Shown: positions 21,732-43,197 of the stretch, one piece after another
How the letters are laid out: every line of letters starts with the position of its first letter
Position numbering within the stretch: the first letter of the stretch is position 1
NCBI GenBank assembly: GCA_964535215.1
Contig: CAZHST010000014.1
Location: 13,297-72,401, forward strand
Direction: 5' to 3'
DNA from: an uncultured bacterium
Lineage (GTDB): Bacteria; Methylomirabilota; Methylomirabilia; Methylomirabilales; JACQHM01
DNA length: 59,105 nucleotides
Position numbers and translations under genes: made by a program
Notes under the pieces: model-generated
Told to the model about the DNA's origin: nothing
The model's input: only the letters and a program-made list of their open reading frames with translations
Databases searched by the model: none

Positions 21732-22697
21732 TCAGGGATCCGGGAGGAGCAGGCTTTTCAGCCACACGTGGAGGGCGATCAGGAACCTTCGGGATCGGGG
21801 CAGGGTGATCCGCTGTTGGAACACGTTGTACGAGGCCTCCTCGATCTCCTGGAGGAGCTTGAAGTAGATCCCTCGCATGATCTCCGCGGCCGGCATCGAG
21901 CGGCGATCCTTCTCGGCCAAGGCAGCTTCGGCCTTTCGGAAGTATTCTCTGGCCCTGCTCCCCTGAAACCTCATCAGCTCCACAAAAGAAGCGTTGTAGC
22001 GACCCTTGAGGAGATCCTCCTCAGAATAGCCAAATCGCCGGAGTTCTCCCTGGGGGAGGTAGATCCTTCCCCGCGTGGCATCAACGGCAAGATCCCGCAT
22101 GATGTTCGTCAGCTGGAAGGCGATGCCTAGGTTCTCAGCGTACACCTTGGCGGTAGGGCTTGTGTAGCCGAAGATCTCGATGCAGATGAGCCCGACGGCT
22201 GAGGCGACCCGGTAGCAGTATTCGTAAAGCTCCTCGAAGGTCTCATACCGGGCCTTCCTGAGATCCATCTCCACCCCATCCACCACCAGCTCGAAATACG
22301 CCTTCGGAATCGCGAACCATCTCAGGACCTCCGAAAGCTTCATCGTGATGGGGTGGGCCGCCTCCCCACGGAAGCACCGGTCCAGCTCCTCCCGCCACCG
22401 CTTGAGTTGCTCCTCTGCCTCCTCGGGCCGTGGATTTTCATCAACGATGTCATCCAGGTGGCGGCAGAAGGCATAGACGGCATAGATGGCGTCCCGCTTT
22501 TTCTTCGGCAGGAAGAGGAAGGCGTAGTAGAAGTTGGAGCGGCTCCCCTTTGTCAATTTCCTGCTGTAGCTTCCAACGTCCAAGGGGATTTCCTCCCTCT
22601 TCAGACCCTTTTCCAAGCCCGTTTCAAGCCGGGAATTGTCACAAATTGTAGTATGGGTGGGGGGGAAGTCAAGGGAAAATCGGCCTGCTATGGGCAT
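21732..22697 (-). CDS. squalene/phytoene synthase family protein (HpnD/HpnC/SQS-like)
   Basis: YSRKLTKGSRSNFYYAFLFLP, YAFCRHLDDIVDE, NIMRDLAVD Asp-rich motifs. The start is uncertain; the listed ORF extends further upstream. Confidence 0.75.
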   Translation of the reverse strand: MPIAGRFSLDFPPTHTTICDNSRLETGLEKGLKREEIPLDVGSYSRKLTKGSRSNFYYAFLFLPKKKRDAIYAVYAFCRHLDDIVDENPRPEEAEEQLKRWREELDRCFRGEAAHPITMKLSEVLRWFAIPKAYFELVVDGVEMDLRKARYETFEELYEYCYRVASAVGLICIEIFGYTSPTAKVYAENLGIAFQLTNIMRDLAVDATRGRIYLPQGELRRFGYSEEDLLKGRYNASFVELMRFQGSRAREYFRKAEAALAEKDRRSMPAAEIMRGIYFKLLQEIEEASYNVFQQRITLPRSRRFLIALHVWLKSLLLPDP

Positions 22698-22828
22698 CCT
22701 CCTTGACCGGGGAAAGGGGAACTTGCTATCGTAGGTGCGTTTGCCAACCCTTTTCCAGGTTCCCCGGGTTGATCCGGTTTGTTGGGTTCCTGGGGACCGG
22801 GTCAGCCCTGGGAGGACGGAGGTGTCTG

Positions 22829-23749
22829 ATGGCCGGAAGCAGCGCTCCCCAACCTCGGGTGTTTCCCCCTCCACCCCCCACGGAGAGCCCCTTGGAGGGG
22901 GTCATTGACTTTCATGTGCATACCGGTCCCGATGTGTTCGGCCGGAGTTTGAATGATCTGGAGGTGGCCCGGAAGGCGGCCGAAGCCAGGATGGGGGCTC
23001 TCGTTTTGAAGAACCACGTGACCGAGACCTCCGGGCGGGCCTACCTCGCCAGGCTCCAGGTTTCGGGGGTCAAGATCTTTGGCGGCATCGTTTTGAACAG
23101 AGCCGTGGGTGGGATCAACCCCGATGCGGTCCGGTGGATGATCCGGATGGAAGGGGGGTTGGGGAAGGTGGTGTGGCTTCCCACTTTCGACGCGGACCAT
23201 CACGTCAAGTACTTTCAGGAGGCCTCTGACGGCATCCGGGTCGTCGAGGGGGGGAAGGTCCTCACCCAGGTCGAAGAGGTCATGCGGATCTGTGCCGATC
23301 ACGATCTCGTCCTCCACACCGGTCACGCCTCGGCCCAGGAGGCCCTGATCCTGATCGAGCGGGCCAGGGAGCTAAATGTTCGTAACATCGTCGTCACCCA
23401 TGCCCAACTGGCCGTCGTGGGCATGTCTGTCCCGGAGATGAAACAGGCCGCTCAGATGGGGGCCTACCTGGAGATCGCCTACATCGGTGACCTGATGGGG
23501 GAAACTGCTCACCTGGAGTGGATGCGTCAGTGGAAGCGGGTCAGCATCGTCGAATACGCCAAGGCCATTAAGGCGGTAGGGGCCAGGCACTTCATCTTAA
23601 GCACCGACCTCGGTCAAACGGGCAATCCTTCCCATGTGGACGGGTACAAGGTCCTGATCGCCGGTCTCCTGAAAGAGGGGATTTCGGCGAAAGAGATTGA
23701 CCTGATGGCCAGGAAGAACCCTGCCCGGCTTCTGGGGCTCAAGCTCTAA
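22829..23749 (+). CDS. amidohydrolase-superfamily TIM-barrel metal-dependent hydrolase
   Basis: DFHVHTGPD ... HVKYF ... LHTGHA ... STDLGQ metal-ligand pattern. Preceded by GGAGGacGGAGG. Divergent from the squalene synthase gene. Confidence 0.5.
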   Translation: MAGSSAPQPRVFPPPPPTESPLEGVIDFHVHTGPDVFGRSLNDLEVARKAAEARMGALVLKNHVTETSGRAYLARLQVSGVKIFGGIVLNRAVGGINPDAVRWMIRMEGGLGKVVWLPTFDADHHVKYFQEASDGIRVVEGGKVLTQVEEVMRICADHDLVLHTGHASAQEALILIERARELNVRNIVVTHAQLAVVGMSVPEMKQAAQMGAYLEIAYIGDLMGETAHLEWMRQWKRVSIVEYAKAIKAVGARHFILSTDLGQTGNPSHVDGYKVLIAGLLKEGISAKEIDLMARKNPARLLGLKL

Positions 23750-23774
23750 CCTTTCCCCTGGGGCGCGCTGGAGA

Positions 23775-24575
23775 TCACCCTCCAACACCAGGGTAGAAGG
23801 TCCTGGGAGAGGAAGCGTCCGCCTCGAGAGGCAGCCAGGAGAGGAAGTGGAGGAGAAAGGGCGCAAGGGCCCGAAGGGCAGCTCCGCTCGTCTCTTTAAG
23901 GCGCCAGAGGGAAGGGCCAACCTTTGGGCAGGCCAGAAGGGTCAGAAGGACCTTAAGGGGAGACACTTCCCCTTTCCTCCCCGTGAGCCGGTTAAAGTCC
24001 ATCCCCAATCGTTGATCGGAGGTGTCAGAGACGACACGGATAGCCAGGAAGGGGAGACGGGCTTGAAAGGCGATCTGGGCCACGGCGGCACTCTCCAGAT
24101 CAGCGGCAAGGGCTCCCGATCGGCCGGCCCCTCGTTTCTCCTCAGGTTCTATGAGGATCCGAGCCGACGTAAGCAGGGTCCCCTGACGGTAAGGGATCTC
24201 AAGGGCCTCGGCCGTTTCCCTGGCAAGCCTGAGCAAAAGGGGGGATGAGGGGAGCGGGCAGGGATCGGAGGAGGTCTGGTCGAGGATCTGTTCACCCAGG
24301 ATGATCTCACCGGGCCGGAGGTCCGGCTGAAGGGCCCCGGCGAGGCCAGTGGAAAGGAGGGTTGAAGGGCTAAAGCCTTCTACCAAAGTGGTGGCGGCGT
24401 GTCGGGTCCGCCCTCTGCCCATGCCGCTTGCCACGAGGACGATCCTCTGGCCTCCCAAGCTTCCGGTGAGAAACGAAAACCCTTGACGGTCCTCCCTCTT
24501 CCTCCCCTCAAGCTTCTTCCCCAGACCTCTCGTCTCCCGCTTGAGGGCCATCACGATGCCGATCGGCCGGTCCAT
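23775..24575 (-). CDS. hpnG: hopanoid-associated phosphorylase/nucleosidase (PNP_UDP_1 family, HpnG-like)
   Basis: Purine nucleoside phosphorylase family fold (VLVASGMGRGRTRHAA...AADLESAAVAQ). Located immediately downstream of shc. Confidence 0.65.
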   Translation of the reverse strand: MDRPIGIVMALKRETRGLGKKLEGRKREDRQGFSFLTGSLGGQRIVLVASGMGRGRTRHAATTLVEGFSPSTLLSTGLAGALQPDLRPGEIILGEQILDQTSSDPCPLPSSPLLLRLARETAEALEIPYRQGTLLTSARILIEPEEKRGAGRSGALAADLESAAVAQIAFQARLPFLAIRVVSDTSDQRLGMDFNRLTGRKGEVSPLKVLLTLLACPKVGPSLWRLKETSGAALRALAPFLLHFLSWLPLEADASSPRTFYPGVGG

Positions 24576-26443
24576 AGGGATGCACGCCCCAGGGCCAGTA
24601 AGGGGAAGTAGACCCGGTAGAGGTGATAGCGAAGGTAGAAGAACCTCGGGAAGCCGGTCCCGGTGAAGGCCTCCTCCGCCCAGTCCCCCTCTTCTCGCTG
24701 GGACTCAACCAGGTAATGGATCCCTCTCTTGACGGCTTCGGAGGCGCCCTCACCGGCGGCGAGGAGGGCGAGGAGGGCCCAGGCCGTTTGGGAAGGGGTG
24801 CTCTCACCGATCCCGGCGAAGGCCTTCCCCTCGTAGCTCTTGCACGATTCTCCCCACCCCCCATCGGGGTTTTGTTGGGCTTTAAGCCAGTGGACGGCCT
24901 TCCTGATCCAGGGCTGGTCCATGTCTTCGCCGATAGCCTTCAAGGCGCTTAGGACAGACCAGGTGCCGTAGATGTAGTTCACCCCCCACCTTCCGAACCA
25001 GCACCCCTCCGGTTCTTGCTCATTTTTAAGGAAGTTGAGGGCCTTGGAAGCCGGGGGGAATGTAGGGTCATAGCCCAATGTCCCCATTAGCTCTAGGACC
25101 CGGGCCGTCACGTCAGCTGTCGGTGGGTCGAGCAGGGCTTTGTGATCGGCGAACGGGATCTCGTTCAGAAACAGCTTGGTGTTGTCAGCGTCGTAGGCCC
25201 CCCATCCACCGTTCTTACTCTGCATCCCCAGGAGCCAGCGGAGGCCCCTTTCGATGCTTGCCTGCTGGATCTCGTGTTCCCCAGGCGGGAGCTTCACCCG
25301 GTGGAGGGCCATGAGGACCATGGCCGTATCGTCACAATCCGGGTAGAAGCCATTTTCATACTGGAAGCACCATCCGCCAGGTCTCAAGCCCGGTCGTTTC
25401 ACGGCCCAATCCCCCACGGTATCAATCTGCTGGGAAAGGAGCCAGCGGGCTCCCCTTTGGAGGGCAGGGTGGGAGGGATCGAGGCCGCTGTCTACCAAGG
25501 CGATGATAGTGTTGGCCGTATCCCAGACGGGGGAGAAGCAGGGCTGGAGGTGAAGGGTGTCCTCGTCCTCAACCTTTAGCTCATCAATCTCCCGAAGCGC
25601 CTTGGTGACGAGGGGATGGTCCATCGGATACCCAAGGGCCATAAGAGCCCAAACGGAATTGGCCATCGCCGGGTAGATGGCCCCCAGGCCTCCTGATCCT
25701 TTCATCCGTTCGAGCATCCAGGCCTCAGCCCTTTTGAGGGCCTTCCCCCTTACCCATTCCAACGGGTGGGCATCGTAGGCCCTGAGGAGACGGTCAAGGG
25801 TCAGGAAGAAGGTCCGCCAGCTCAGCCCTGTTCCATCTTCCTCGAACCACCGGGTGACCTCCTCCGGGGGGGTGACGTAAAGCTCGCGGATCCCCTGCTC
25901 CGGCGGGATCCTTTTCAGGGGACGTTTGGCGAAGATGATGAGGAGGGGCATCAGGACAGTCCTGGACCAGTAGGAGATCTCGTAAAGAAAAGCCCGGGGC
26001 AGCAGGGCGAGTTCTACGGGCATCGCCGGGATTCCCTTCCAGGGGTACTGGCCGAAGAGGGCCAAGGCGATCCTGGTGAAGATGTTCACCTTTGCCGCTC
26101 CCCCCTTGCCCAAGATGTTTGCCCTCGCCCTTCTCATGTGGGGGGCTTCGGGGGACTCCCCCGCCAGTTTCAGGGCGAAGTAGGCCTTGACGGTGCAGGA
26201 AAGCTCACCCGGTCCCCCATGGTAGATGGGCCAGCCCCCATCGGGAAGCTGCTTCCTCAGGAGATACCGGACTACCTTTTGATCCCGTGTCGGATCCAGC
26301 CGCCCGAGGAAGTGGTTTAACATCAGGTACTCGGAGGTCAGGGTGGAGTCCGCTTCCAGTTCAGCCACCCAGAACCCTTGAGGGGCCTGTCGCTTCAACA
26401 GATATTCTTGGGTCGTGAGGATCGCTGCTTTCAAGTGTTCCAT
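24551..26443 (-). CDS. shc: squalene-hopene cyclase
   Basis: 630 aa with repeated QW motifs, the DCDDTAMVLMAL catalytic DxDD motif, and GGWG repeats. Confidence 0.9.
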   Translation of the reverse strand: MEHLKAAILTTQEYLLKRQAPQGFWVAELEADSTLTSEYLMLNHFLGRLDPTRDQKVVRYLLRKQLPDGGWPIYHGGPGELSCTVKAYFALKLAGESPEAPHMRRARANILGKGGAAKVNIFTRIALALFGQYPWKGIPAMPVELALLPRAFLYEISYWSRTVLMPLLIIFAKRPLKRIPPEQGIRELYVTPPEEVTRWFEEDGTGLSWRTFFLTLDRLLRAYDAHPLEWVRGKALKRAEAWMLERMKGSGGLGAIYPAMANSVWALMALGYPMDHPLVTKALREIDELKVEDEDTLHLQPCFSPVWDTANTIIALVDSGLDPSHPALQRGARWLLSQQIDTVGDWAVKRPGLRPGGWCFQYENGFYPDCDDTAMVLMALHRVKLPPGEHEIQQASIERGLRWLLGMQSKNGGWGAYDADNTKLFLNEIPFADHKALLDPPTADVTARVLELMGTLGYDPTFPPASKALNFLKNEQEPEGCWFGRWGVNYIYGTWSVLSALKAIGEDMDQPWIRKAVHWLKAQQNPDGGWGESCKSYEGKAFAGIGESTPSQTAWALLALLAAGEGASEAVKRGIHYLVESQREEGDWAEEAFTGTGFPRFFYLRYHLYRVYFPLLALGRASLWTGRSAS

Positions 26444-26456: not shown

Positions 26457-27263
26457 TTACAACTTTTGACCGTGAAGCCCGACCCTCAGATCGCTGATGG
26501 CGACCGTCTGGGAGCCGGGGTCTGGACCCTTCTGTCCGTTCTTCACCCGGACGATGGAGAACCCGAGCAGGGGGAGGGAGAGGGCGAGGCCGATGCCCCC
26601 CAGGATCGGCTCGCCGATCCAGAAGGTCATGCCAACCCCGGAGAGAAGGATGAAGAAGTAGAGGAAAGGACCTCCAAGCCCGGGGGGCTTCGCCCCTGCC
26701 GGTACCCCGCTCAGGGACCGATCCATTACCTCGAAGAGCAGGAAGATCACCGCCCCCACGACCCCCCACCCCAGGAAGTTCGAGAGGGGAACCCCGAAAT
26801 AGATCCCTCCTCCTGGATAGTCATAGATCTTCCCTAAGAACCATCGGTCCCCCCGGAGGGCCAGGGGATCAATGATGAGATCCAAGAGGACGAACAGGAG
26901 GGTGGCTAGGGAGAGGATCCTCCAGCGCCGGAGCCCTTTCCAAGCGGGTTGGAGGAGGCGGAGGGCAAGGGTGTAGCTGGCATAGGCGAGGAAGGTAAAG
27001 GAGAGGGAGTCCATAAAAGGGATATTCAGAATCCAGAGTTCCCTCCCCTTCGTCCCGGGGATGTACACGTAGAGGCCGAAAGGGAAACCGATCCTGGTGG
27101 AGGAGAATTCGGCGGCGAAGGCGACTCCCCAGCCCAGGAAGGTGAGGAGGAGGGTCCGCTTCCAGCCCCAGGATCGGATCCCTGAGACGAAGAAGATCGC
27201 AAAAAAGATGAAGACATACGGCCTGAGCATCAGGGTAGAGAGCAAAAGCTTCAGGGACTCCAT
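26457..27263 (-). CDS. polytopic membrane protein of unknown function (possibly DUF422/carotenoid-biosynthesis-associated family)
   Basis: About 270 aa, 7–8 predicted TM helices. Embedded in the hopanoid operon between the FPP synthase gene and shc. Confidence 0.45.
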   Translation of the reverse strand: MESLKLLLSTLMLRPYVFIFFAIFFVSGIRSWGWKRTLLLTFLGWGVAFAAEFSSTRIGFPFGLYVYIPGTKGRELWILNIPFMDSLSFTFLAYASYTLALRLLQPAWKGLRRWRILSLATLLFVLLDLIIDPLALRGDRWFLGKIYDYPGGGIYFGVPLSNFLGWGVVGAVIFLLFEVMDRSLSGVPAGAKPPGLGGPFLYFFILLSGVGMTFWIGEPILGGIGLALSLPLLGFSIVRVKNGQKGPDPGSQTVAISDLRVGLHGQKL

Positions 27264-27282: not shown

Positions 27283-28230
27283 TCAGTGGCGCCGGGTGGC
27301 GAGATATTCCGCAATGGCGTGGAGGGCCCATGCCCGCCCGCCGAAAGGTTGGAGGGCCTCTTTGGCCTCCGCCGTCAGACGCTCAACCTCTATCTCCGAC
27401 CGCTCTTTCCCTAAGAGGGCGGGATAGGTCGCCTTTCCATGCCTCAGGTCGCTCTTCGCCGGCTTCCCCAGCTCCTCCGTCGTCCCGGTGACATCGAGGA
27501 GGTCATCCACGATCTGGAAGGCAAGGCCGATCCGCTCCCCGTACCGGCTTAAGGCCCCGATCTGTTCTTCGGAGGCCCCCGCGACCAACCCTCCGGCGAT
27601 GACCGACGCCCGGATGAGGGCCCCTGTCTTGTGGGTGTGGAGGTAGAGGAGCGTCTCCTGGTCAATCACTTTCCCCTGCGAGAGGATATCAACCGACTGC
27701 CCCCCGACCATCCCGCGGCTTCCCGCGGCCCGGGCGATCTCCTGGATCAGGGTGGAATGCCTCTCGGCGTTCATCCTTTGGGCAACAGCACCCTGGGAGA
27801 GGAGCTCAAAGGCCAGGGTGAGGAGGGCATCCCCGGCCAGGATGGCCAGGGCCTCGCCGTAGACCTTGTGGCAGGTTGGCTTTCCCCGTCGGAAGTCGTC
27901 ATCGTCCATGCTGGGCAGATCATCGTGGATGAGAGAGTAGGTGTGGATGCATTCTAGAGCAGCGGCAATGGGGAGGACACCTTCGACCTCCCCTCCCACC
28001 GCCTCGGCCGCGGCGATGGCGAGGATCGGCCGGAGGCGTTTCCCTCCGGCGAAGACGCTGTAGCGGATCGCTTCGTGGAGGAGGCGGGGGTAGGTCTCGG
28101 CCGGAGGGAGGAGCCGATCCAGGGCCTGATCAATTAGCCTTCGCCGTTCTGCCAGATAGGCCTCTAGCTGCGTCATCACGCGCCTCGCTCTTAGGTCATG
28201 CCGCCAGGGCCTGGGGCTCGACCGCTTCAC
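27283..28230 (-). CDS. polyprenyl diphosphate synthase (farnesyl/geranylgeranyl diphosphate synthase)
   Basis: First and second Asp-rich motifs LIHDDLPSMDDDDFRRG and FQIVDDLLD. Confidence 0.8.
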   Translation of the reverse strand: MKRSSPRPWRHDLRARRVMTQLEAYLAERRRLIDQALDRLLPPAETYPRLLHEAIRYSVFAGGKRLRPILAIAAAEAVGGEVEGVLPIAAALECIHTYSLIHDDLPSMDDDDFRRGKPTCHKVYGEALAILAGDALLTLAFELLSQGAVAQRMNAERHSTLIQEIARAAGSRGMVGGQSVDILSQGKVIDQETLLYLHTHKTGALIRASVIAGGLVAGASEEQIGALSRYGERIGLAFQIVDDLLDVTGTTEELGKPAKSDLRHGKATYPALLGKERSEIEVERLTAEAKEALQPFGGRAWALHAIAEYLATRRH

Positions 28231-31149: not shown

Positions 31150-31157
31150 CTTGCACC

Positions 31158-33562: not shown

Positions 33563-34072
33563 ATGACAGGGGAAGACATGCAGGGTGGGGCAAAACGGTT
33601 CGTGGCCCTCCTGGAGGCGGCGGGCTTCAACTTCTTCACAGGGGTCCCCTGTTCCCTCCTTGAAGGCATCCTGGCCGTTCTGGAGAGACACCCCCGCCTC
33701 CCCTACATCCCTGCCGTCCGGGAGGATGCGGCGGTCGGGATGGCGAGTGGAGCGTTCCTGGCCGGGAAACGGCCGGTTGTCCTTATGCAGAATTCCGGTC
33801 TCGGCACATCCTTAAATGCCCTGGTCTCCTTGAACCTCCTCTACAAGATCCCGCTCCTCCTGGTGGTAAGCTGGCGGGGGTATCGGGGGAAGGATGCCCC
33901 TGAACACCTCATCATGGGGGATGTGTCGCCTCGACTTCTGGAGGATCTCAGCCTGCCCTACCTTGCTCTGGACGAGGAGAAGTTGGAGGACGCCCTCTCC
34001 TGGGCGAAAGGGGTGCTGGAGGGGCAGGGGCTCCCGGCAACCTTCCTCGTCCGTCCCGGGGTCTTACGATGA
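33563..34072 (+). CDS. TPP-dependent phosphonopyruvate/sulfopyruvate decarboxylase, alpha subunit (ComD/Ppd N-terminal half)
   Basis: FVALLEAAGFNFFTGVPCSLLEGIL...MQNSGLGTSLNAL is the TPP-enzyme N-terminal (pyrimidine-binding) domain. Start chosen at the internal ATG; an ATG at 33578 is also possible. Confidence 0.65.
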   Translation: MTGEDMQGGAKRFVALLEAAGFNFFTGVPCSLLEGILAVLERHPRLPYIPAVREDAAVGMASGAFLAGKRPVVLMQNSGLGTSLNALVSLNLLYKIPLLLVVSWRGYRGKDAPEHLIMGDVSPRLLEDLSLPYLALDEEKLEDALSWAKGVLEGQGLPATFLVRPGVLR

Positions 34073-37203: not shown

Positions 37204-39987
37204 GTGCTGGTCCGGTTCCTAAAGTTCATCTATCGGCATCCGCGAAGTGTCATCGTTGTCTCTCTGGCAGTAGCCGTCGTCTCTGTCCTCTATGCCGCGA
37301 CCCACTTGAGCTTTAAGACCAGCCGCCTTGACCTCGTTTCCTCCAAGGACAGGTATAGCCTGCTCCACCGGGAGCATAGCAGGGAGTTTGAGTCCCTGGA
37401 TCGGATTGTCATTGTGGTTCAAAGCCATCATCCAGAGCGGGCCAAGGCCTTCGCCAGCCTGTTGGGAAGACGGTTGGAGGCGGACAGGGAGGATTTCGAA
37501 AAGGTCTTTTATCGAATCGACATCGAACCCTTGAAAAACAGAGGCCTCCTTTACCTATCCGCTGACGACCTCCTCGCCCTCAGGCGGAAGCTCCAAAGGC
37601 ATGCGGAGCTGATCAGAGACCTGGCCGCCTCCCCCACCCTCCCCGGCCTCTTCTCCCTGATCAATCGGGAGATGACCTCGGCGATGATCAGCCATACCTT
37701 CACCGGTTTCTTGCTGGAGGAGGAGCAGGGGGGGGAAAAGGAACCTGTTGATCTCGGCCTGCTGATCTCCATCCTGAGAGCGATGGACGAGTGGGTTGAG
37801 GGTCAACACGCCTACGTCTCCCCCTGGGAGGCCTTTTTCACCAAGGAGAAGTGGAAGACATCGGAGGATGGGTTCCTCTGGTCAGAGGATAAGACGTTTC
37901 TCTTCCTCCTGGTCACCCCCCGGCAGGTCTCCGGGACCTTCGACCGGTTCAGGAAGGCCGTTGAGCGTGTCCGGCAGGAGGTCCGGGAGCTTCGCAAAGC
38001 TTTTCCAGACCTCGAGGTCGGGGTCACGGGGCAATCGGTCCTGGATTCGGATGAGATGGGGGCGGCCCAGCGGGATACCGCCATGGCGGCTTTGATCTCC
38101 CTCGTAGGGGTCGGGCTTCTCTATTTCGTCATGTTCAGAGGGGTCATGAGACCCCTCTTCGCCCTCGTGACGCTGGTCATTGGTCTGGGCTGGTCCATCG
38201 GCTTCACCGCCCTGACGGTGGGGCATCTGAACATCATCACCATGACCTTTGCGCCGCTTTTGATCGGCCTGGGGATTGATTACGGCAGCTACTTTATCGG
38301 TCGGTACATGGAAGAGAGGATGCCAGGGGTTGGGGTGCCTTTCGTCATGGAGCGGACCACCGCTGCCGTTGGGCCGGGGATAGCGGCGACCGCCCTCATC
38401 ACCGCGTTCTCCTTCTTCACCCTCGTCTTCACCGACTTCAAAGGTCTGGTCGAGCTGGGCTTCATCAGCGGGACCGGCATCCTCCTCATCCTGCTCGCCA
38501 CCTTCACGGTTCTTCCGGCGTTCCTCATCCTCTATGATGGCCGGAGAGGGGCAACCTTCGATCTCCGCGGAATGAGGGGCGGTGAGGCCCGCTCCGGCTA
38601 CCTGGAAGGGCTGTACCGCTATCCGCTGGTCACCCTCTCGGCGAGTGCCCTCCTTGTCCTCCTTTCCCTCGCGTTTCTCGGGAGGGTTGGGGCTGACTTT
38701 AACCTCCTCCACATGCAGGCCGAAGGGACCGAGTCCGTTGTCTGGGAGCTTAAGATCCTGGAGAACGCCAAGCGGTCGGCCTGGTTTGCGGTGAGCGTCG
38801 CCGACTCTCTGGAGGAGGTGAGGCGAAGGGAGAAGGCCTTTAAGGCCCTTCCTTTGGTGGCAGGGGTCCAGAGCCTTGCCTCCCTGATCCCTCAGGACCA
38901 GGAGCGGAAGCTCCGCCTTCTCAAAAGCCTCCGTCCCTTCCTGGCCGATATCCCCATCCCTCAGGTCAAGCCCGGGCCCCTGGACCTGGAGGTCCTCCTG
39001 TCCACCTTGGAGAGGATCAAGTTCAAGATGGTAGAGGATGGTGGCGAAACCTGGGACCCCAGGAAGAGGCCACCCGTGGAGGCGATGCGTGAGGTGCGCC
39101 GCCTCATTGACCAGTTCTTAACATGGGCCAAGCAAACGGAGCCTGAGGAAGTCCATCGGGCCCTTCAAGGGTTCGAGAGGGAGATTTTCGGGGACTTGAA
39201 GGACAAGCTGGATTTCCTGAAACGGGGCCTCGACGCCGGACCGGTAACGCTCCAGACCATTCCCCCTGAGCTTAAGGAGCGCTTCGTGGGCAGGACGGGA
39301 AGGTACCGGGTATTGATCTTTCCCGCCGAGAACATCTGGGAGCCTGAGCACCTGGCGAAGTTCGTCCGGGCGATCAGGGCTGTGGACCCTGATGCCATCG
39401 GTGATCCGGTCCTGGGCTTTGAGCACATGCAGGCGATGAAGACGGCCTACAAGAAAGCCGGGTTGTATTCGGTCGTCGGTCTCCTCCTCCTGGTCTTTCT
39501 CACGTTTAAGGAGGTGAAGGCTTCCCTCTTGGCCCTGATCCCTTTGGTCCTTGGTTCCCTGTGGACCTTAGGCTTCATGGGGGCCTTTCAGGTGAAGTTC
39601 AACCTGGCCAACCTTATCGTCCTCCCCTTGATAGGGGCTCCTGGGATCGAAGGTGGCATCATGGTCCTCACCCGTTACCGCGAGGAGAGGACCACCAGGA
39701 AGCTCCCCCTTCCCCTCCCCAAGAGCACCGGGAGGGCCATGGCGTTCTCGGCCTTGTCCACGATGGTCGGATTCGGGAGCTTGATGATCTCCCGCCATCG
39801 GGGGATTTACAGCATCGGCCTCCTCCTCATGGTTGGGGTGGGGTGTATCCTCCTGGCTTCCGTCACCGCCCTTCCTGCCGTCCTGCGACTCCGCTTATCA
39901 AAGCAGGCGAAGGTTTCGGGGGAGGATCAAGAGATGCCTCAAACCGTTGGGGCCAAGGAAGGAGGCTGGAAAGGCAGGGGGGGGTAA
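37204..39987 (+). CDS. hpnN: hopanoid-associated RND-superfamily (MMPL-like) transporter HpnN
   Basis: About 927 aa with two 6-TM bundles (the sterol-sensing-like GxxxD..., second bundle near 39480-39900) and two large periplasmic loops. GTG start after the RBS; the upstream ATG at 37150 lies inside the predicted promoter. Confidence 0.7.
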   Translation: MLVRFLKFIYRHPRSVIVVSLAVAVVSVLYAATHLSFKTSRLDLVSSKDRYSLLHREHSREFESLDRIVIVVQSHHPERAKAFASLLGRRLEADREDFEKVFYRIDIEPLKNRGLLYLSADDLLALRRKLQRHAELIRDLAASPTLPGLFSLINREMTSAMISHTFTGFLLEEEQGGEKEPVDLGLLISILRAMDEWVEGQHAYVSPWEAFFTKEKWKTSEDGFLWSEDKTFLFLLVTPRQVSGTFDRFRKAVERVRQEVRELRKAFPDLEVGVTGQSVLDSDEMGAAQRDTAMAALISLVGVGLLYFVMFRGVMRPLFALVTLVIGLGWSIGFTALTVGHLNIITMTFAPLLIGLGIDYGSYFIGRYMEERMPGVGVPFVMERTTAAVGPGIAATALITAFSFFTLVFTDFKGLVELGFISGTGILLILLATFTVLPAFLILYDGRRGATFDLRGMRGGEARSGYLEGLYRYPLVTLSASALLVLLSLAFLGRVGADFNLLHMQAEGTESVVWELKILENAKRSAWFAVSVADSLEEVRRREKAFKALPLVAGVQSLASLIPQDQERKLRLLKSLRPFLADIPIPQVKPGPLDLEVLLSTLERIKFKMVEDGGETWDPRKRPPVEAMREVRRLIDQFLTWAKQTEPEEVHRALQGFEREIFGDLKDKLDFLKRGLDAGPVTLQTIPPELKERFVGRTGRYRVLIFPAENIWEPEHLAKFVRAIRAVDPDAIGDPVLGFEHMQAMKTAYKKAGLYSVVGLLLLVFLTFKEVKASLLALIPLVLGSLWTLGFMGAFQVKFNLANLIVLPLIGAPGIEGGIMVLTRYREERTTRKLPLPLPKSTGRAMAFSALSTMVGFGSLMISRHRGIYSIGLLLMVGVGCILLASVTALPAVLRLRLSKQAKVSGEDQEMPQTVGAKEGGWKGRGG

Positions 39988-40035: not shown

Positions 40036-40776
40036 TCAGGACCCCTCGTCCAGCTTTCTCCCCAGGGCCCTTGCCTGCTCCAGTTCTTCCGGCGTGTCAA
40101 TGTCCATCCAGGGAAGCCCCCCGGTGAGGGAATAGCCGACCGGGACCCCCCGGGCGATCAAGGCTTCAATGGCTGCCGTGAAATAGAGATCCGTTCTCGC
40201 CTGCTGGATGAATCCTCTCATCTCCTCAAAGAAGAGGCGGCTGCCTCGTCCTGAGAATCTGGCGATGCCGATGAAGGTTCCCGTGGCTTCACCGGGGAGG
40301 ATGGATTTGCTGACGGCGGTGATCCGGTCCCCTTGGGAGGTCACCTTCATCGTCTCCCCGAGGATCTCGCGATCAATGACCAGGCAGATATCTCCTGGAA
40401 ATGCCAGGCATCCAGGGAGGATCGCCTTGTGAAAGAGGACATCGGCATGGAGGATGAAACAGGGCAGGCCTTCCACTTGCTCCCGCGCGATCCATGCTGA
40501 ATAGAGATTGTTGGTCTCGGCGTAGAGAGGGTTGTGGAGGAGGGTAAGGCGAAAGGGGTAGCGGCGAGCAGCCCTAGCGGCAAAGCGGTGGATGGCATCA
40601 GCCCGATGGCCGGTGACGATCAGGACCTCGGCGACTCCCGATCCCGCCAGGGCGTCAAGTTGGTATTCCAACAGGGACCTTCCCCCAACATCCAAAAGGC
40701 ACTTCGGCGTGTCGGCCGTCAGCGGGTGAAGCCTGGTGGCCCTCCCCGCTGCGAGGATCAGGGCCTTCATGACCAC
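40036..40776 (-). CDS. sugar-/phosphobase nucleotidyltransferase (LicC/PntC-like cytidylyltransferase family)
   Basis: MKALILAAGRATRLHPLTADTPKCLL is the canonical GxGxRL nucleotide-binding loop. Confidence 0.7.
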   Translation of the reverse strand: MVMKALILAAGRATRLHPLTADTPKCLLDVGGRSLLEYQLDALAGSGVAEVLIVTGHRADAIHRFAARAARRYPFRLTLLHNPLYAETNNLYSAWIAREQVEGLPCFILHADVLFHKAILPGCLAFPGDICLVIDREILGETMKVTSQGDRITAVSKSILPGEATGTFIGIARFSGRGSRLFFEEMRGFIQQARTDLYFTAAIEALIARGVPVGYSLTGGLPWMDIDTPEELEQARALGRKLDEGS

Positions 40777-41094
40777 CTCCCAAAGCTTAGAGACCTGTCA
40801 GGGGGGTCCCATCTTATGTACCACGGTTTTGCCGAAAAGCAAGGAAAAAATCCCGGGTCGAGGATCGGAGGCGTTTGACAAACCCCCGGGCCTACGCTAT
40901 CATGCTCCCCGATCTCCAGTCCCATGGCATTTTTTGAACCATGGGGCCCCAGCCGACGTATCTGGAGGGAGGGAACAATCTGGGAAGAGGTGGTGTTCTG
41001 TAAGGGAGGGGTGGGTCAGCCTGGGAGGCCCATGGAGGGGGAGCGAGCCGGTGGGATTTATCATCGGGGTCCCTGGTTCCGAAAGGAGGGTTCG

Positions 41095-42501
41095 ATGAAC
41101 TGGAGGCGAGGACCGAGGGTGGTGCTAGGACTCCTGGGAGCTTTTGGGCTCTTTGCCTTTCCCCCTCCCCTGAAGGCGCAAGAGGTGCCGAGAACAGGGA
41201 CGGTCATCCTTGACCTCAAGCAGGCCATTGAAATGGCGGTCATGACAAGCCCTGACATCAAGCGGGTGCAGGCGGGTGTGGACGCTGCCCAGGCCAAGAA
41301 GGATCAGGCCGATGCCGGACGACTCCCCCAGTTCGAGTTCACGAGCGTCTTGGGCCCCTCGCCCGAGGCCCGGGTCTTCACCACGGAATTGGGCGATGTC
41401 CGATCAACCGATCGAACGGACCGGCCAACCATCAACGGGATCTTCGGGCGGAGTGACTTTACGTTGATCCAGCCCTTGTACACCTTTGGTAGGATCTCGG
41501 GGCTCCGGGAGGCCGCCGGCCATGGGGTTCGGGTCGAGCAGGCGCGGGTGGAAGAAAAGACCTCGGAGGTCATCTTGAAGGTCAAGGAGGCCTATTACAG
41601 CCTCCTCCTCGGGATGGAGCTCCAGAACCTCCTCCTCGATATCCAGGAGCAGTTGGAGCGGGCCCTGGAGAAGGTGGAACGGATCCTGGAGGCTGGGGCG
41701 CCCGGGGCGGATGAGGTGGATCGGTACAAGCTCAGGACCTTCCGGGGGGAGCTTCAGCGGAACCTGAATGAGGTGGCGAAGGTGATTGATGTGGCCACCG
41801 CCGGGCTCAAGACCTTGACCGGCTTGGCGCCCGATCAGGTGGTCGAGCCAGCGGTGAAAACGCTGGAACCGGATCCCAGGCCCGTCCCTCCTCTCGAGCA
41901 GGCCCTTAAGGAGGCCCAGGAGCGGCGGCCGGAGTTCGTTCAGATCCGCGAAGGCCTGTTGGCCACCCAGGCCTTGGTGGCGGCCGCGAGGGCAGAACGC
42001 TATCCCCAGCTGTTCATGGCCGTCACAGGTTCCGTGTCCCGGGCCACCAACCGTACCCCCCTCACCAACCCGTTCGTCTTCGACGAGCTGAATCATACGG
42101 TGGTAGTCCCGCTGATCGGCTTCAAGTGGCACTTCGACTTCGGCATCCTTGCCGGCAAGGTTCGAGAAGCCCAGGCCGAGCATCAGAAGGTGGTTCACGC
42201 CAAGGAACTGGCGGAGCAGGGGGTCCCCTTTCAGGTGAGAAAAGCCTACCGGGAGCTGGAGGAGGCCCGGCAGAGCATCAAGGCGACGGAGGAGGCGTAT
42301 GCCAACGCGAGGAGGTGGCTGGTGGCCGCGGTGGCCAACTTCGATTTGGGCGTGGGCGAGGCCAAGGAGGTAGCCGATGCCCTTGTCGCCTTCGTCAAGA
42401 TGCGGGCGGAGAATTTCAAGGCGATCTTTAACTACAACATGGCCCTTGCCGCCCTGGACCAGGCGACCGGCAAGGCCGTCCAAGAAGTGGGAAGACCCTG
42501 A
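41095..42501 (+). CDS. TolC-like outer membrane efflux protein
   Basis: Signal peptide MNWRRGPRVVLGLLGAFGLFAFPPP, two OEP repeats with coiled-coil segments. RBS GAAAGGAGGG upstream of this ATG; the longer ORF from 40924 is unlikely. Confidence 0.7.
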   Translation: MNWRRGPRVVLGLLGAFGLFAFPPPLKAQEVPRTGTVILDLKQAIEMAVMTSPDIKRVQAGVDAAQAKKDQADAGRLPQFEFTSVLGPSPEARVFTTELGDVRSTDRTDRPTINGIFGRSDFTLIQPLYTFGRISGLREAAGHGVRVEQARVEEKTSEVILKVKEAYYSLLLGMELQNLLLDIQEQLERALEKVERILEAGAPGADEVDRYKLRTFRGELQRNLNEVAKVIDVATAGLKTLTGLAPDQVVEPAVKTLEPDPRPVPPLEQALKEAQERRPEFVQIREGLLATQALVAAARAERYPQLFMAVTGSVSRATNRTPLTNPFVFDELNHTVVVPLIGFKWHFDFGILAGKVREAQAEHQKVVHAKELAEQGVPFQVRKAYRELEEARQSIKATEEAYANARRWLVAAVANFDLGVGEAKEVADALVAFVKMRAENFKAIFNYNMALAALDQATGKAVQEVGRP

Positions 42502-42561
42502 GGGGAAGGCAACGGGGGAGGCGTGGCTCCGGGAACACGGGGAGAGAGGAGGTTTTTGAGG

Positions 42562-43197
42562 ATGGGACGACGATGGGGGCACACCAAGAGGATGGCTTGG
42601 GCAGGGTCCTGGTTGGGGATCCTCTTCCTGGCTCAAGGGTTCCTTTCCACCGCCGTGGCCGGGGAACCCTTGGAACAGGTCAAGGCAACCCTGGAGGCTG
42701 CTTCGGCGATCCTGGGGGACCCGAAGCTTGCTGGGCCGGAAAAGGAGGAGGAGCGGAGGGAGGCGGTCAAGAAGATCATCTTCGATCGCTTTGATCTTCG
42801 GGAGATGGCGGCCCGCTCCCTGGGGGATCAGTGGGCCAAGCTGACCCCATCCCAACAGGAGGAGTTTGTCCAGGTCTTTGGCGACCTCTTCCAAAGGTCC
42901 TACACCCGCCTGGTGCTCAGGTTTCTCCCGGAAAGGCGGACCCTTTATGGGCAGGAGAGGCTGGATGGGTCAACGGCCCTGGTGAAAACGACCCTGGTCA
43001 GTCAGCGGAACGAGCGGTTGCCGGTTGATTACCGACTCATCAAGAAGGGGCCCCGGTGGGCCTTTTTCGACGTGATCATTGATGGGGTCAGCATCGTTGG
43101 GAACTATCGAACCCAGTTCAGCAAAATTATCCGAAACTCCTCCTATGAGAGCCTCGTCCGCCGCATGAAACTCAAACAGGAACAGGAGTCCTTTTAG
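42562..43197 (+). CDS. MlaC/Ttg2D-family lipid-binding periplasmic protein (HpnM-like)
   Basis: Signal peptide, then IIFDRFDLREMAARSLGDQWAKLTPSQQEEFVQVF...FFDVIIDGVSIVGNYRTQF, the toluene-tolerance Ttg2D/MlaC fold. Next to the hpnN/TolC genes. Confidence 0.65.
   Translation: MGRRWGHTKRMAWAGSWLGILFLAQGFLSTAVAGEPLEQVKATLEAASAILGDPKLAGPEKEEERREAVKKIIFDRFDLREMAARSLGDQWAKLTPSQQEEFVQVFGDLFQRSYTRLVLRFLPERRTLYGQERLDGSTALVKTTLVSQRNERLPVDYRLIKKGPRWAFFDVIIDGVSIVGNYRTQFSKIIRNSSYESLVRRMKLKQEQESF

What the first reader, a model, noticed from the sequence alone, without database searches (positions are those of the whole stretch)
21732..43197. Extended hopanoid locus: synthesis (SQS-family, shc, hpnG, hpnH, hpnA, FPP synthase) plus dedicated export (HpnN RND, TolC-like, MlaC-like HpnM)
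A roughly 9.5 kb leftward operon (33256→23775) carries HpnL-like, hpnH, an outer-membrane barrel, hpnA, a His-box membrane protein, the FPP synthase gene, a membrane protein, shc and hpnG. A squalene-synthase-family gene sits just downstream. hpnN, a TolC-like channel and an MlaC-like periplasmic lipid carrier follow to the right. Having the inner-membrane RND pump, a periplasmic lipid-binding protein and an outer-membrane channel adjacent suggests a complete envelope-spanning hopanoid trafficking route. Only a single SQS-family gene is present rather than hpnCDE.
Basis: partly seen in the sequence, partly recalled or inferred. Interest (0 to 1): 0.55.

Follow-up and report, generated by a model that had tools for sequence, protein, structure and literature searches.

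The report
Hopanoid cluster with embedded phosphonate cassette

Summary
SHC, HpnH, HpnA, an FPP synthase and an HpnD-type synthase pass curated NCBIfam cut-offs. HpnN-, HpnM-, HpnG- and HpnL-like proteins hit those families best but score below cut-off.

A PEP-mutase-like/nucleotidyltransferase fusion lies 5 kb further right. Together these match the predicted but uncharacterised "Group 1 phosphonolipid" cassette.

This cassette sits inside hopanoid clusters in two diverged NC10 lineages and, independently, in Roseomonas (Alphaproteobacteria). In Proteobacteria its flippase-like member is a bona fide HpnL.

The HpnN/MlaC-like/TolC-like trio is conserved across NC10. That supports a trafficking module, an idea already published for HpnN+HpnM+HpnS, but no adaptor protein is present.

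My best reading is one lipid supercluster that makes hopanoids, adds a phosphonyl head group (acceptor unproven, possibly bacteriohopanepolyol), flips the product and exports it. The PEP-mutase-like enzyme lacks the diagnostic EDKX5NS motif. I rate this a new variant of a known kind, of moderate to high interest.

The parts
21732..22697 (-). HpnD-type presqualene diphosphate synthase (the ORF can extend to 22874)
   Evidence: TIGR03465 scores 327.9, above the 278.6 cut-off. HpnC scores 195.6 (below 250.5) and eukaryote-type SQS only 24.6. The called gene is 321 aa in L001.
22829..23749 (+). DUF6282 / amidohydrolase-like gene on the opposite strand, between hpnG and hpnD
   Evidence: PF19799 scores 222 bits. 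The called gene is 306 aa. Its role is unknown.
23775..24575 (-). HpnG-like nucleoside phosphorylase; overlaps shc by 25 nt
   Evidence: The best NCBIfam hit is TIGR03468 HpnG at 124.1, below the 187.1 cut-off. It belongs to the PNP_UDP_1 family.
24551..26443 (-). Squalene-hopene cyclase
   Evidence: TIGR01507 scores 803.7, above the 431.1 cut-off.
26457..27263 (-). PF04240 (CruF-like 'carotenoid biosynthesis') membrane protein
   Evidence: Pfam scores 85 bits. It is conserved beside hpnH/shc in all NC10 clusters at 46-49% identity. Its function in hopanoid metabolism is unknown.
27283..28176 (-). Farnesyl diphosphate synthase
   Evidence: NF045485 scores 372.8, above the 275 cut-off.
28196..29077 (-). 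Orphan polytopic membrane protein with four invariant histidines
   Evidence: No Pfam or NCBIfam hit. Only 2 homologues exist among 1.84 billion representative proteins. H52, H118, H196 and H265 are invariant. The AF2 model is all-helical but low confidence.
29090..30103 (-). HpnA (hopanoid-associated SDR/epimerase)
   Evidence: TIGR03466 scores 489, above the 367.65 cut-off.
30118..31149 (-). DUF3187 protein with a signal peptide and a C-terminal ...DYRF; candidate outer-membrane beta-barrel
   Evidence: PF11383 scores 65.6 bits. The AF2 model is unusable at pLDDT 33.
31158..32156 (-). HpnH, adenosyl-hopene transferase (radical SAM)
   Evidence: TIGR03470 scores 384.5, above the 225 cut-off.
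32213..33256 (-). HpnL-like 1 (LPG_synthase_TM, flippase-like), first gene of the leftward operon
   Evidence: TIGR03476 scores 181, below the 195.65 cut-off. A promoter-like site lies at 33385-33357. It is 52% identical to HpnL-like 2 and 43-44% identical to the cassette partners in Nitrospirota.
33578..34072 (+). Phosphonopyruvate decarboxylase, alpha (TPP_enzyme_N) subunit
   Evidence: The concatenated alpha+beta sequence scores 318.2 on TIGR03297, above the 312.5 cut-off. The sulfopyruvate decarboxylase models stay below their cut-offs. The best PDB match is 9iz3_A, a 'putative phosphonopyruvate decarboxylase alpha subunit'. A promoter-like site lies at 33507-33535.
34069..34644 (+). Phosphonopyruvate decarboxylase, beta (TPP_enzyme_C) subunit
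   Evidence: best PDB match 9iz3_B.
34668..35660 (-). HpnL-like 2 (LPG_synthase_TM), translationally coupled to the CDP-alcohol phosphotransferase
   Evidence: TIGR03476 scores 155.3, below cut-off. The same adjacency is seen in Nitrospirota, NC10 and Acidobacteriota.
35657..36949 (-). CDP-alcohol phosphotransferase with a degenerate N-terminal nucleotidyltransferase-like domain (AF2299/IPCT-DIPPS architecture)
   Evidence: PF01066 hit. The motif DxxDGxxAR..G...D...D is invariant in 12 homologues. The profile's best PDB hits are AF2299 (4O6M, 79.6 bits) and IPCT/DIPPS (4MND).
37243..39987 (+). HpnN-like HAE3/MMPL RND transporter (the ORF can start at 37150)
   Evidence: TIGR03480 scores 629.5 (below 751.85) and NF052374 scores 378.9 (below 1100). 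It aligns full-length to the B. multivorans HpnN structure 5KHN at E=1e-62.
40036..40776 (-). Stand-alone nucleotidyltransferase (PntC/LicC-like candidate)
   Evidence: PF00483 and PF12804 hits. The best NCBIfam hit is the IPCT domain. It is always adjacent to the CDP-OH transferase in NC10 group 2, Nitrospirota and Acidobacteriota.
41092..42501 (+). TolC-family outer-membrane protein (OEP x2), non-lipoprotein signal peptide (the ORF can start at 40924)
   Evidence: PF02321 scores 138 bits. It aligns full-length to the TolC structures at low scores. The OEP-MlaC pair is conserved across NC10. A promoter-like site lies at 40875-40903.
42592..43197 (+). HpnM-like MlaC-family periplasmic lipid-binding protein
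   Evidence: TIGR03481 scores 84.8, below the 160.1 cut-off. It matches MlaC/Ttg2D structures.
45051..48294 (+). Operon of a GT4 glycosyltransferase, a non-B12 radical SAM protein and a PIG-L deacetylase (membership of the system is uncertain)
   Evidence: It is conserved in L004. The enzyme types parallel HpnI/HpnJ/HpnK, but the families differ.
48323..49957 (-). PEP-mutase-like domain fused to NTP_transf_3 (PntC-like); non-canonical motif EDNVFPKRCS
   Evidence: TIGR02320 scores 281.7, below the 319.55 cut-off. The best PDB hit is PEP mutase 5UNC at 287 bits. All 120 best homologues carry EDN..PKRCS. It co-occurs with the split Ppd, Aminotran_5, NTP transferase, CDP-OH transferase and HpnL-like genes in Nitrospirota.

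Best explanation
The region is one membrane-lipid supercluster of an NC10/Methylomirabilota bacterium, made of three interleaved modules.

(1) C35 hopanoid synthesis. This is shown by HMM scores. FPP synthase and HpnD lead to squalene; hpnC and hpnE must lie elsewhere in the genome or be dispensable. SHC, HpnH and an HpnG-like protein then lead to ribosylhopane/BHP, and HpnA is also present.

(2) A head-group cassette of the 'Group 1 phosphonolipid / Burkholderiales_CDP-OH' type. Its composition is shown; its chemistry is inferred. The inferred pathway is:
- The PepM-like/PntC fusion and the split Ppd convert PEP to phosphonoacetaldehyde, and then to a phosphonate.
- A cytidylyltransferase activates that phosphonate as the CMP conjugate.
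- The AF2299/DIPPS-type CDP-alcohol phosphotransferase transfers the phosphonyl group to a lipid hydroxyl on the cytoplasmic face.
- An HpnL-like, MprF-flippase-related protein flips the product.

(3) A trafficking module. Its conserved synteny is shown; its mechanism is inferred. The HpnN-like RND protein extracts lipid from the outer leaflet of the inner membrane. The MlaC-like HpnM carries it across the periplasm. The TolC-family protein, and possibly the DUF3187 barrel, is the outer-membrane end.

The acceptor of the phosphonyl group is not established. I favour bacteriohopanepolyol, with diacylglycerol as the alternative.
For: Evidence that the cassette belongs to the hopanoid cluster:
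- In NC10 MAGs with only 34-36% (CDP-OH transferase) and 41% (HpnN) identity, the order is HpnN-MlaC-OEP-MlaDFE-CruF-like-HpnH-HpnG-NTPt-CDPOH-x-Ppd alpha-Ppd beta-HpnL-HpnA-FPPS-HpnD. The cassette therefore lies inside the hopanoid operon despite rearrangement.
- Roseomonas marmotae (Alphaproteobacteria) assembled the same combination independently: VacJ(HpnS)-HpnN-...-FPPS-PntC-aepX-aepY-HpnL-AEPT-CDP-OH transferase-ispH-hpnH-hpnG-shc.
- In Mycetohabitans the cassette lies next to dxs and a bona fide HpnN that scores 1244, above the 1100 cut-off.
- The same cassette occurs on its own in Nitrospirota, with 28-63% identity part by part.

Evidence from HpnL:
- The cassette's LPG-synthase-domain protein is a bona fide HpnL in Proteobacteria, scoring 329.8 and 259.6 against a 195.65 cut-off.
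- Bona fide HpnL also sits next to hpnI/hpnJ, which decorate the BHT C-35 hydroxyl.
- In a rough NJ tree the two contexts are not separate clades.

Evidence for the link to transport:
- An HpnN-HpnL fusion protein exists, with an MlaC neighbour.
- In Acidobacteriota the HpnL-like/CDPOH/NTPt triad is operonic with a LolA-like protein and an outer-membrane barrel.

Literature:
- shc-ppm linkage was noted in Roseomonas as a possible 'terpene-phosphonate' (PMC8776678).
- HpnN+HpnM+HpnS trafficking has been proposed (PMC12324291).
- The Group 1 cassette has been described, but its product has never been identified (PMC8942020).
Against: - In Burkholderia, Cupriavidus and Nitrospirota the cassette lies away from hopanoid genes: 9-20 kb of flanks were checked. 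Clustering with hopanoid genes is therefore not universal, and the acceptor could be a glycerolipid.
- The PepM-like enzyme lacks two residues of the diagnostic EDKX5NS motif (K->N and N->C) and scores below the TIGR02320 cut-off.
- No PepM was seen in the 32 kb inspected in an NC10 group-2 MAG.
- The window has no AEP transaminase or phosphonoacetaldehyde reductase.
- HpnN, HpnM, HpnL and HpnG all score below their curated cut-offs.
- No membrane-fusion protein or MlaA is encoded, so how a TolC-family protein would take part is unknown.
- No phosphorus-containing BHP is mentioned in a large 2025 survey of BHPs in Alphaproteobacteria (PMC12583986).
- All functional statements rest on homology and synteny.
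Confidence: 0.6

Rival explanations
1. The modules are independent neighbours. The phosphonate/CDP-alcohol cassette makes an ordinary diacylglycerol- or ceramide-based phosphonolipid, or decorates a glycan. It merely sits in a 'membrane-lipid island' next to a standard hopanoid operon and its HpnN/HpnM transporters, and hopanoids are never phosphonylated.
For: - The cassette occurs without hopanoid genes nearby in Nitrospirota, Burkholderia and Cupriavidus.
- It was classified by others as a 'phosphonolipid' cluster (PMC8942020).
- In eukaryotes, CDP-alcohol phosphotransferases use CMP-AEP with diacylglycerol (established Kennedy-type chemistry; from my own knowledge).
- No P-containing BHP is mentioned in the BHP survey PMC12583986.
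Against: - The cassette is embedded within hopanoid operons, on the same strand and tightly packed, in two diverged NC10 lineages and independently in Roseomonas.
- Its flippase-like member is the hopanoid-associated family HpnL, which also accompanies hpnI/hpnJ.
- No Group 1 phosphonoglycerolipid has been characterised, even though ppm expression has been detected.
Confidence: 0.3
2. One reading: a plain extended hopanoid locus plus a complete HpnN-HpnM-TolC envelope-spanning hopanoid export route. The intervening genes play no part.
For: - The hopanoid genes pass their cut-offs.
- The HpnN-like/MlaC-like/OEP trio is conserved in NC10 next to shc.
- A published hypothesis proposes HpnN+HpnM trafficking.
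Against: - It ignores five conserved genes inside the span.
- No adaptor (MFP) gene is present.
- HpnN and HpnM score below their cut-offs.
- The HpnN-like clade also occurs fused to HpnL, with DAG-kinase and PAP2 neighbours and no hopanoid genes, so its cargo need not be an unmodified hopanoid.
Confidence: 0.25
3. The head group is not a phosphonate. The EDN..KRCS enzyme is not a PEP mutase but another isocitrate-lyase-superfamily activity. The split TPP enzyme decarboxylates a different 2-oxo acid, for example sulfopyruvate. The CDP-alcohol transferase then installs a phospho-alcohol such as inositol or glycerol phosphate, as in DIPPS/AF2299.
For: - The diagnostic Ppm motif is not met, and the KRC signature resembles the lyase branch.
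- TIGR02320 scores below its cut-off.
- The Ppd model is passed only narrowly, 318 vs 312.5.
- The closest NCBIfam and PDB relatives of the transferase are inositol-phosphate enzymes.
- The Acidobacterial triads lack both the TPP enzyme and PepM.
Against: - The other PepM catalytic residues align: the Mg-binding Asp/Glu, K120, R159 and H190 (read against the 1M1B numbering from my own knowledge).
- PEP mutase structures are the best matches by far, 287 bits versus about 150 for the lyases.
- The clade co-occurs with Ppd-like genes, a class-V aminotransferase (the family that includes AEP transaminase PhnW, from my own knowledge) and PntC-like genes, just as canonical Ppm does in Burkholderiales.
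- The sulfopyruvate decarboxylase models score below their cut-offs.
Confidence: 0.15

Closest known systems
Canonical hpn hopanoid biosynthesis clusters (Rhodopseudomonas palustris, Burkholderia, Methylobacterium)
   Same: It has shc, hpnH, an hpnG-like gene, hpnA, hpnD, a polyprenyl synthase, an HpnN-like RND protein, and HpnL- and HpnM-like genes in one locus.
   Different: It has no hpnC or hpnE, and no hpnI/J/K, hpnO, hpnP or hpnR orthologues. It adds a CruF-like protein, a DUF3187 protein, an orphan histidine-rich membrane protein and the phosphonate cassette. HpnN, HpnM, HpnL and HpnG score below their equivalog cut-offs.
Group 1 phosphonolipid / 'Burkholderiales_CDP-OH' ppm gene-cluster family (Yu et al. 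2013 as cited in PMC8942020; Rice et al. 2019, PMC6697681)
   Same: It has a Ppm-like/PntC fusion, a Ppd, a second nucleotidyltransferase, a CDP-alcohol phosphotransferase and an LPG-synthase-domain (HpnL) protein.
   Different: The Ppm-like domain carries EDNVFPKRCS instead of EDKX5NS. Ppd is split into two subunits. There is no AEP transaminase and no 2OG oxygenase. The transferase has an AF2299-like N-terminal domain. The parts are dispersed over 16 kb and interleaved with hopanoid and transport genes.
shc-ppm 'hybrid' clusters of Roseomonas (Acetobacteraceae), noted by antiSMASH as a possible 'terpene-phosphonate' (PMC8776678)
   Same: The phosphonate cassette is embedded between HpnN and FPP synthase on one side and hpnH, hpnG and shc on the other.
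   Different: The phylum differs. Roseomonas has a canonical Ppm (382 vs a 319.6 cut-off), a single-chain Ppd, an AEPT, a short (200 aa) CDP-OH transferase and a VacJ/MlaA-type outer-membrane partner instead of a TolC-type one. No product is known for either cluster.
Proposed HpnN-HpnM-HpnS(/HpnT) hopanoid trafficking pathway (Lawrence et al. 2025 preprint, PMC12324291) and the Mla system
   Same: It has an inner-membrane HpnN-type RND protein plus a periplasmic MlaC-like carrier encoded together near hopanoid genes. NC10 group 2 also carries MlaFED.
   Different: The candidate outer-membrane partner here is a TolC-family OEP (plus a DUF3187 protein), not an MlaA-like lipoprotein or a DUF2147 lipocalin. 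That paper does not discuss any TolC or phosphonate association.
AF2299 / IPCT-DIPPS CDP-alcohol phosphotransferases (PDB 4O6M, 4MND)
   Same: It has a cytosolic nucleotidyltransferase-like N-domain fused to a six-TM CDP-alcohol phosphotransferase with an intact DxxDGxxAR..G...D...D motif.
   Different: The N-domain lacks the GxGxR loop; it reads PPPGGDW instead. The genomic partners are phosphonate and hopanoid genes, not inositol-phosphate synthase.

Membership tests
Hopanoid (hpn) biosynthesis cluster | Squalene-hopene cyclase present | tested here: met
   TIGR01507 scores 803.7, above the 431.1 cut-off.
Hopanoid (hpn) biosynthesis cluster | C35 side-chain enzymes HpnH and HpnG | tested here: met
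   HpnH scores 384.5, above 225. The HpnG-like protein has HpnG as its best hit but is sub-threshold at 124 vs 187; it overlaps shc.
Hopanoid (hpn) biosynthesis cluster | Three-enzyme squalene route HpnC+HpnD+HpnE | tested here: not met
   Only HpnD is present (328 vs 279). No HpnC or HpnE is found among the ORFs of the 59 kb window. The rest of the genome is not available.
HpnN hopanoid transporter (TIGR03480 / NF052374) | Score at or above the curated equivalog cut-off | tested here: not met
   It scores 629.5 vs 751.85 and 378.9 vs 1100. HpnN is still the best family and the best PDB match, full-length to 5KHN.
HpnN hopanoid transporter (TIGR03480 / NF052374) | Hopanoid transport to the outer membrane | not testable with these tools
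   Only synteny with shc and hpnH in NC10 bears on this.
HpnM (TIGR03481, MlaC-like) | Score at or above cut-off; periplasmic MlaC fold | tested here: inconclusive
   It scores 84.8 vs 160.1. It matches MlaC-family structures and has a signal peptide by inspection.
HpnL (TIGR03476) | Score at or above cut-off | tested here: not met
   The two copies score 181 and 155.3 vs 195.65. The proteobacterial cassette orthologues do pass, at 329.8 and 259.6.
Tripartite RND-MFP-TolC efflux pump | Periplasmic membrane-fusion adaptor encoded with the RND and OEP genes | tested here: not met
   No HlyD/MFP family protein is found in the window. The OEP domains themselves are present.
PEP mutase (Ppm/AepX) | Diagnostic motif EDKXXXXXNS | tested here: not met
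   The sequence here is EDNVFPKRCS. All 120 best homologues share EDN..PKRCS. The motif definition comes from PMC6697681.
PEP mutase (Ppm/AepX) | TIGR02320 score at or above cut-off | tested here: not met
   It scores 281.7 vs 319.55, although this is the best-scoring family.
PEP mutase (Ppm/AepX) | Coupled to a PnPy-consuming enzyme (Ppd) and fused or adjacent to PntC | tested here: met
   It carries a C-terminal NTP_transf_3 fusion. The split Ppd is in the same locus here, and adjacent in Nitrospirota.
Phosphonopyruvate decarboxylase (TIGR03297) | Score at or above cut-off and better than the sulfopyruvate decarboxylase models | tested here: met
   The concatenated subunits score 318.2 vs 312.5. 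ComD and ComE score 122.5 (cut-off 148) and 173.7 (cut-off 221.5). The best PDB match is 9iz3. The margin is narrow.
Group 1 phosphonolipid cassette (Burkholderiales_CDP-OH) | Seven-gene core: Ppm-PntC, Ppd, AEPT, 2OG oxygenase, second PntC, CDP-OH transferase, LPG-synthase-domain protein | tested here: inconclusive
   Five of the seven are present. AEPT and the 2OG oxygenase are absent from the window.
CDP-alcohol phosphotransferase (PF01066) | Catalytic motif D(x)2DG(x)2AR(x)8G(x)3D(x)3D | tested here: met
   The motif is intact and invariant across 12 homologues.
Mla phospholipid transport system | MlaFEDB inner-membrane complex and MlaA outer-membrane lipoprotein | tested here: not met
   Neither is in the window. 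MlaFED is present in the NC10 group-2 clusters.

The most novel reading that the evidence does not exclude
The HpnL-associated cassette attaches a 2-carbon phosphonate head group (an AEP/HEP-type group, donated as a CMP conjugate) to the terminal hydroxyl of a bacteriohopanepolyol. HpnL flips the product and HpnN/HpnM/OEP deliver it to the outer membrane. This would be the first phosphorus-containing hopanoid. It would give a function to the long-unassigned HpnL and identify the product of the most abundant predicted 'phosphonolipid' gene-cluster family. It would also show that a large EDN..PKRCS clade, which the standard Ppm motif filter discards, makes C-P bonds.
Probability: 0.3. Interest if true: 0.8.

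Novelty: new variant of a known kind. Interest (0 to 1): 0.58.

Why it matters
Hopanoids are major bacterial membrane lipids and geological biomarkers. The functions of HpnL, HpnA and HpnM are still listed as unknown.

Separately, the most common predicted phosphonolipid gene-cluster family has no known product. This locus, with its relatives in Roseomonas and Mycetohabitans, physically joins the two problems. The same HpnL family sits in both hopanoid head-group loci and phosphonate cassettes.

That makes a concrete hypothesis testable in cultured strains: phosphonylated hopanoids, or at least a co-exported phosphonolipid. The locus also flags a large PEP-mutase-like clade that current phosphonate genome mining discards. 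Finally, it offers a TolC-type variant of the proposed hopanoid trafficking route.

Tried and rejected
- A genome-contig scan with the single HpnN-like protein found no relative. It was replaced by a scan with the CDP-OH transferase alignment.
- AlphaFold2 on the orphan 293-aa protein (3-sequence alignment, pLDDT 47.5) and on DUF3187 (single sequence, pLDDT 33) gave unusable models, so I ran no fold searches.
- The orphan 293-aa protein is not related to the unannotated 286-aa ORF that sits beside the CDP-OH transferase in NC10 group 2.
- I considered sulfopyruvate decarboxylase (ComDE) for the split TPP enzyme and rejected it on model scores.
- I considered a canonical PEP mutase assignment and rejected it on motif and cut-off. 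I kept it as 'PepM-like, probably functional' on context.
- I rejected a classical RND-MFP-TolC pump because there is no adaptor gene.
- HpnI/HpnJ/HpnK orthology for the GT4/rSAM/PIG-L operon found no matching models.
- The Rfam scan found only tRNAs.
- The literature search found no report of a phosphorus-containing hopanoid.

Full report
**Origin and reliability.** The window is about 62% G+C. Its proteins have their closest named relatives in 'candidate division NC10 / Candidatus Methylomirabilota' MAGs. The exact SHC protein occurs on a Logan metagenome contig. An independent JGI assembly (L004) shows the same gene order at about 92% amino-acid identity, so the arrangement is not a mis-assembly. 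The flanks are housekeeping genes:
- on the left: ispE, prs, bL25, pth, bS6, ssb, bL9 and dnaB
- on the right: radA, carD, ispD, gltX and cysS

**Checking the observation.** The leftward operon 33256->23775 is real. It has nine minus-strand genes with gaps of at most 56 nt or overlaps. Five proteins pass curated NCBIfam cut-offs:
- SHC: 803.7 vs 431.1
- HpnH: 384.5 vs 225
- HpnA: 489 vs 367.7
- FPP synthase: 372.8 vs 275
- the downstream 'SQS-family' gene, which is specifically HpnD-type: 327.9 vs 278.6 (its HpnC score of 195.6 is below cut-off)

The HpnG-like (124 vs 187) and HpnL-like (181 vs 196) proteins are best hits but sub-threshold.

- The 'membrane protein' is a PF04240 CruF-like protein.
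- The 'outer-membrane barrel' is a DUF3187 protein with a signal peptide and a C-terminal Phe.
- The 'His-box protein' is an orphan. It has only two homologues among 1.84 billion representatives and four invariant histidines.

To the right lie an HpnN-like RND protein (629.5 vs 751.85; full-length match to the B. multivorans HpnN structure), a TolC-family OEP and an MlaC-family HpnM-like protein (84.8 vs 160.1). No hpnC or hpnE is found in the 59 kb.

Five genes lie between the operon and hpnN, and between hpnN and the OEP gene:
- A split TPP decarboxylase. Its concatenated subunits pass the phosphonopyruvate decarboxylase model (318.2 vs 312.5), while the sulfopyruvate decarboxylase models fail. 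Its best PDB match is a 'putative phosphonopyruvate decarboxylase alpha/beta'.
- A second HpnL-like protein.
- A CDP-alcohol phosphotransferase with an intact catalytic motif and a degenerate N-terminal nucleotidyltransferase-like domain. It is closest to AF2299 and IPCT/DIPPS.
- A stand-alone nucleotidyltransferase.

Five kb right of HpnM lies a GT4/radical-SAM/PIG-L operon, followed by a PEP-mutase-like domain fused to NTP_transf_3.

**The cassette is a known type.** In Nitrospira sp. Kam-Ns4a and in another Nitrospirota contig, the same parts form one compact cluster: the PepM-like fusion, a split Ppd, an NTP transferase, a long CDP-OH transferase and an LPG_synthase_TM protein. That cluster also contains a class-V aminotransferase. 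The window's proteins are 28-63% identical to these, part by part. The composition matches the 'Burkholderiales_CDP-OH / Group 1 phosphonolipid' family, whose product has never been characterised (PMC8942020; PMC6697681). I confirmed the family's composition directly in Mycetohabitans rhizoxinica.

**Link to hopanoids.**
1. Four NC10 MAGs of a different lineage (CDP-OH transferase 34-36% identical, HpnN 41%) have the order HpnN-MlaC-OEP-MlaD/F/E-CruF-like-HpnH-HpnG-NTPt-CDP-OH transferase-x-Ppd alpha-Ppd beta-HpnL-HpnA-FPPS-HpnD. The cassette is inside the hopanoid operon even though the order differs from the window.
2. Roseomonas marmotae (Alphaproteobacteria) has VacJ-HpnN-...-FPPS-PntC-aepX-aepY-HpnL-AEPT-CDP-OH transferase-ispH-hpnH-hpnG-shc. 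A 2021 survey remarked on shc-ppm linkage in several Roseomonas species and suggested an 'undiscovered terpene-phosphonate' (PMC8776678).
3. In Mycetohabitans the cassette is followed by dxs and a bona fide HpnN.
4. The LPG-synthase-domain proteins inside the proteobacterial cassettes score well above the HpnL cut-off (329.8 and 259.6 vs 195.65). Bona fide HpnL also sits beside hpnI/hpnJ, which modify the BHT C-35 hydroxyl, in Methylobacterium bullatum and Paraburkholderia graminis. A rough NJ tree does not separate the two contexts.

So HpnL, whose function recent hopanoid papers call unknown, is the shared partner of two different head-group-adding machineries.

Against a universal link, Burkholderia, Cupriavidus and the Nitrospirota loci show no hopanoid genes within 9-20 kb of the cassette.

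**Transport.** The HpnN-like/MlaC-like/OEP trio is conserved in all NC10 clusters with enough flank. In group 2 it comes with MlaFED, a second MlaC and a PagL-like outer-membrane protein directly upstream of shc. Further links to trafficking:
- An HpnN-HpnL fusion protein exists, with MlaC, DAG-kinase and PAP2 neighbours.
- In Acidobacteriota, including cultured Edaphobacter, the HpnL-like/CDP-OH transferase/NTPt triad is operonic with a LolA-like protein, an outer-membrane barrel and an Exo_endo_phos protein.

The recurring logic is: make a head-group-modified lipid at the inner membrane, flip it, then hand it to a periplasmic carrier and an outer-membrane protein.

An HpnN+HpnM+HpnS (MlaA-like) route was already proposed in 2025 for Pseudomonadota. 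The TolC-family partner here is a variant. No membrane-fusion adaptor is encoded, so a classical tripartite pump is not supported.

**Caveat on the C-P step.** The PepM-like domain aligns best with PEP mutase structures (5UNC, 287 bits). It keeps the aligned Asp/Glu metal ligands, K120, R159 and H190. But it reads EDNVFPKRCS where Ppm has EDKxxxxxNS. All 120 best homologues, mostly Nitrospirota, share EDN..PKRCS. The standard motif filter would remove them. Their constant association with Ppd-like, aminotransferase and PntC-like genes argues that they still supply phosphonopyruvate, but this is inference.

The window also lacks an AEP transaminase or reductase. I saw no PepM in the 32 kb examined in NC10 group 2.

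**Transcription units.** Promoter-like sites (7 found against 3.0 expected) include identical TTGACA-17-TATCAT sites upstream of the Ppd and OEP genes, and one upstream of HpnL-like 1. This fits about nine alternating units rather than one operon.

**Verdict.** The more interesting content is the hopanoid/phosphonate/HpnL connection, which recurs across phyla. It is a new variant of kinds that are known but uncharacterised.

Noticed in passing
window 9722-12008 (- strand): This looks like an IS607-like remnant. A MerR-HTH ORF (11649-12008) and a Resolvase_N ORF (11378-11824) overlap in different frames. They are followed by ORFs 11047-11409 and 9722-11050 (442 aa) with no Pfam match. There is a local GC-skew dip of -0.157.
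   Followed up: partly
window 48323-49957 (-); homologues P0134-P0253: A large clade of PEP-mutase-like/NTP_transf_3 fusions, mostly from Nitrospirota, has the invariant motif EDN[VIL][FY]PKRCS instead of EDKX5NS. Current phosphonate genome-mining filters would discard them, yet they sit beside Ppd, aminotransferase and PntC genes.
   Followed up: partly
window 26457-27263 (-): A PF04240 (CruF-like carotenoid hydratase family) membrane protein is conserved beside hpnH/shc in every NC10 hopanoid cluster examined. It is a possible terpenoid hydratase with no assigned role in hopanoid biosynthesis.
   Followed up: no
window 28196-29077 (-): An orphan polytopic membrane protein lies within the hopanoid operon. 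It has four invariant histidines, no family match and only two homologues among 1.84 billion representative proteins.
   Followed up: partly
window 45051-48294 (+): An operon encodes a GT4 glycosyltransferase, a non-B12 radical SAM protein and a PIG-L deacetylase. These are the same three enzyme types as HpnI/HpnJ/HpnK (BHT-glucosamine and cyclitol ether synthesis) but come from unrelated families. The operon is conserved in L004.
   Followed up: no
window 43241-44470 (-): A 409-aa protein has a signal peptide, a periplasmic domain and a His-rich multi-TM C-terminal part. It matches no family and is conserved in L004.
   Followed up: no
L011-L041 (e.g. Edaphobacter modestus L017 5781-12851 and L026): Acidobacteriota and Verrucomicrobia share a conserved six-gene operon: CarboxypepD_reg/OMP barrel, LolA-like, HpnL-like, long CDP-OH transferase, NTP transferase and Exo_endo_phos. 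E. modestus carries two copies. No TPP decarboxylase or PepM is present.
   Followed up: partly
L044 10001-13855 (P0026, GCA_030157145.1): A single 1284-aa protein fuses an HpnN-like RND transporter (53% identical to the window's) to an HpnL-like LPG_synthase_TM domain. DAG-kinase-like, MlaC and PAP2 genes flank it, and no hopanoid genes are nearby.
   Followed up: partly
L051 7166-10906; L052 14791-19369: Bona fide HpnL (TIGR03476 scores 340 and 337) lies directly beside hpnI/hpnJ in Paraburkholderia graminis and Methylobacterium bullatum. This is a second genomic context for HpnL besides the phosphonate cassette.
   Followed up: yes
L002 17264-19329: In NC10 group-2 clusters, two zinc-type alcohol dehydrogenase genes and ispH follow hpnD. 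They could supply the phosphonoacetaldehyde reduction step that is missing from the cassette.
   Followed up: no
window 16293-16364 and 58411-58991: One tRNA gene lies inside the over-long N-terminal extension of the prs ORF (16130-17425). A cluster of four tRNA genes lies at the right end of the window.
   Followed up: no
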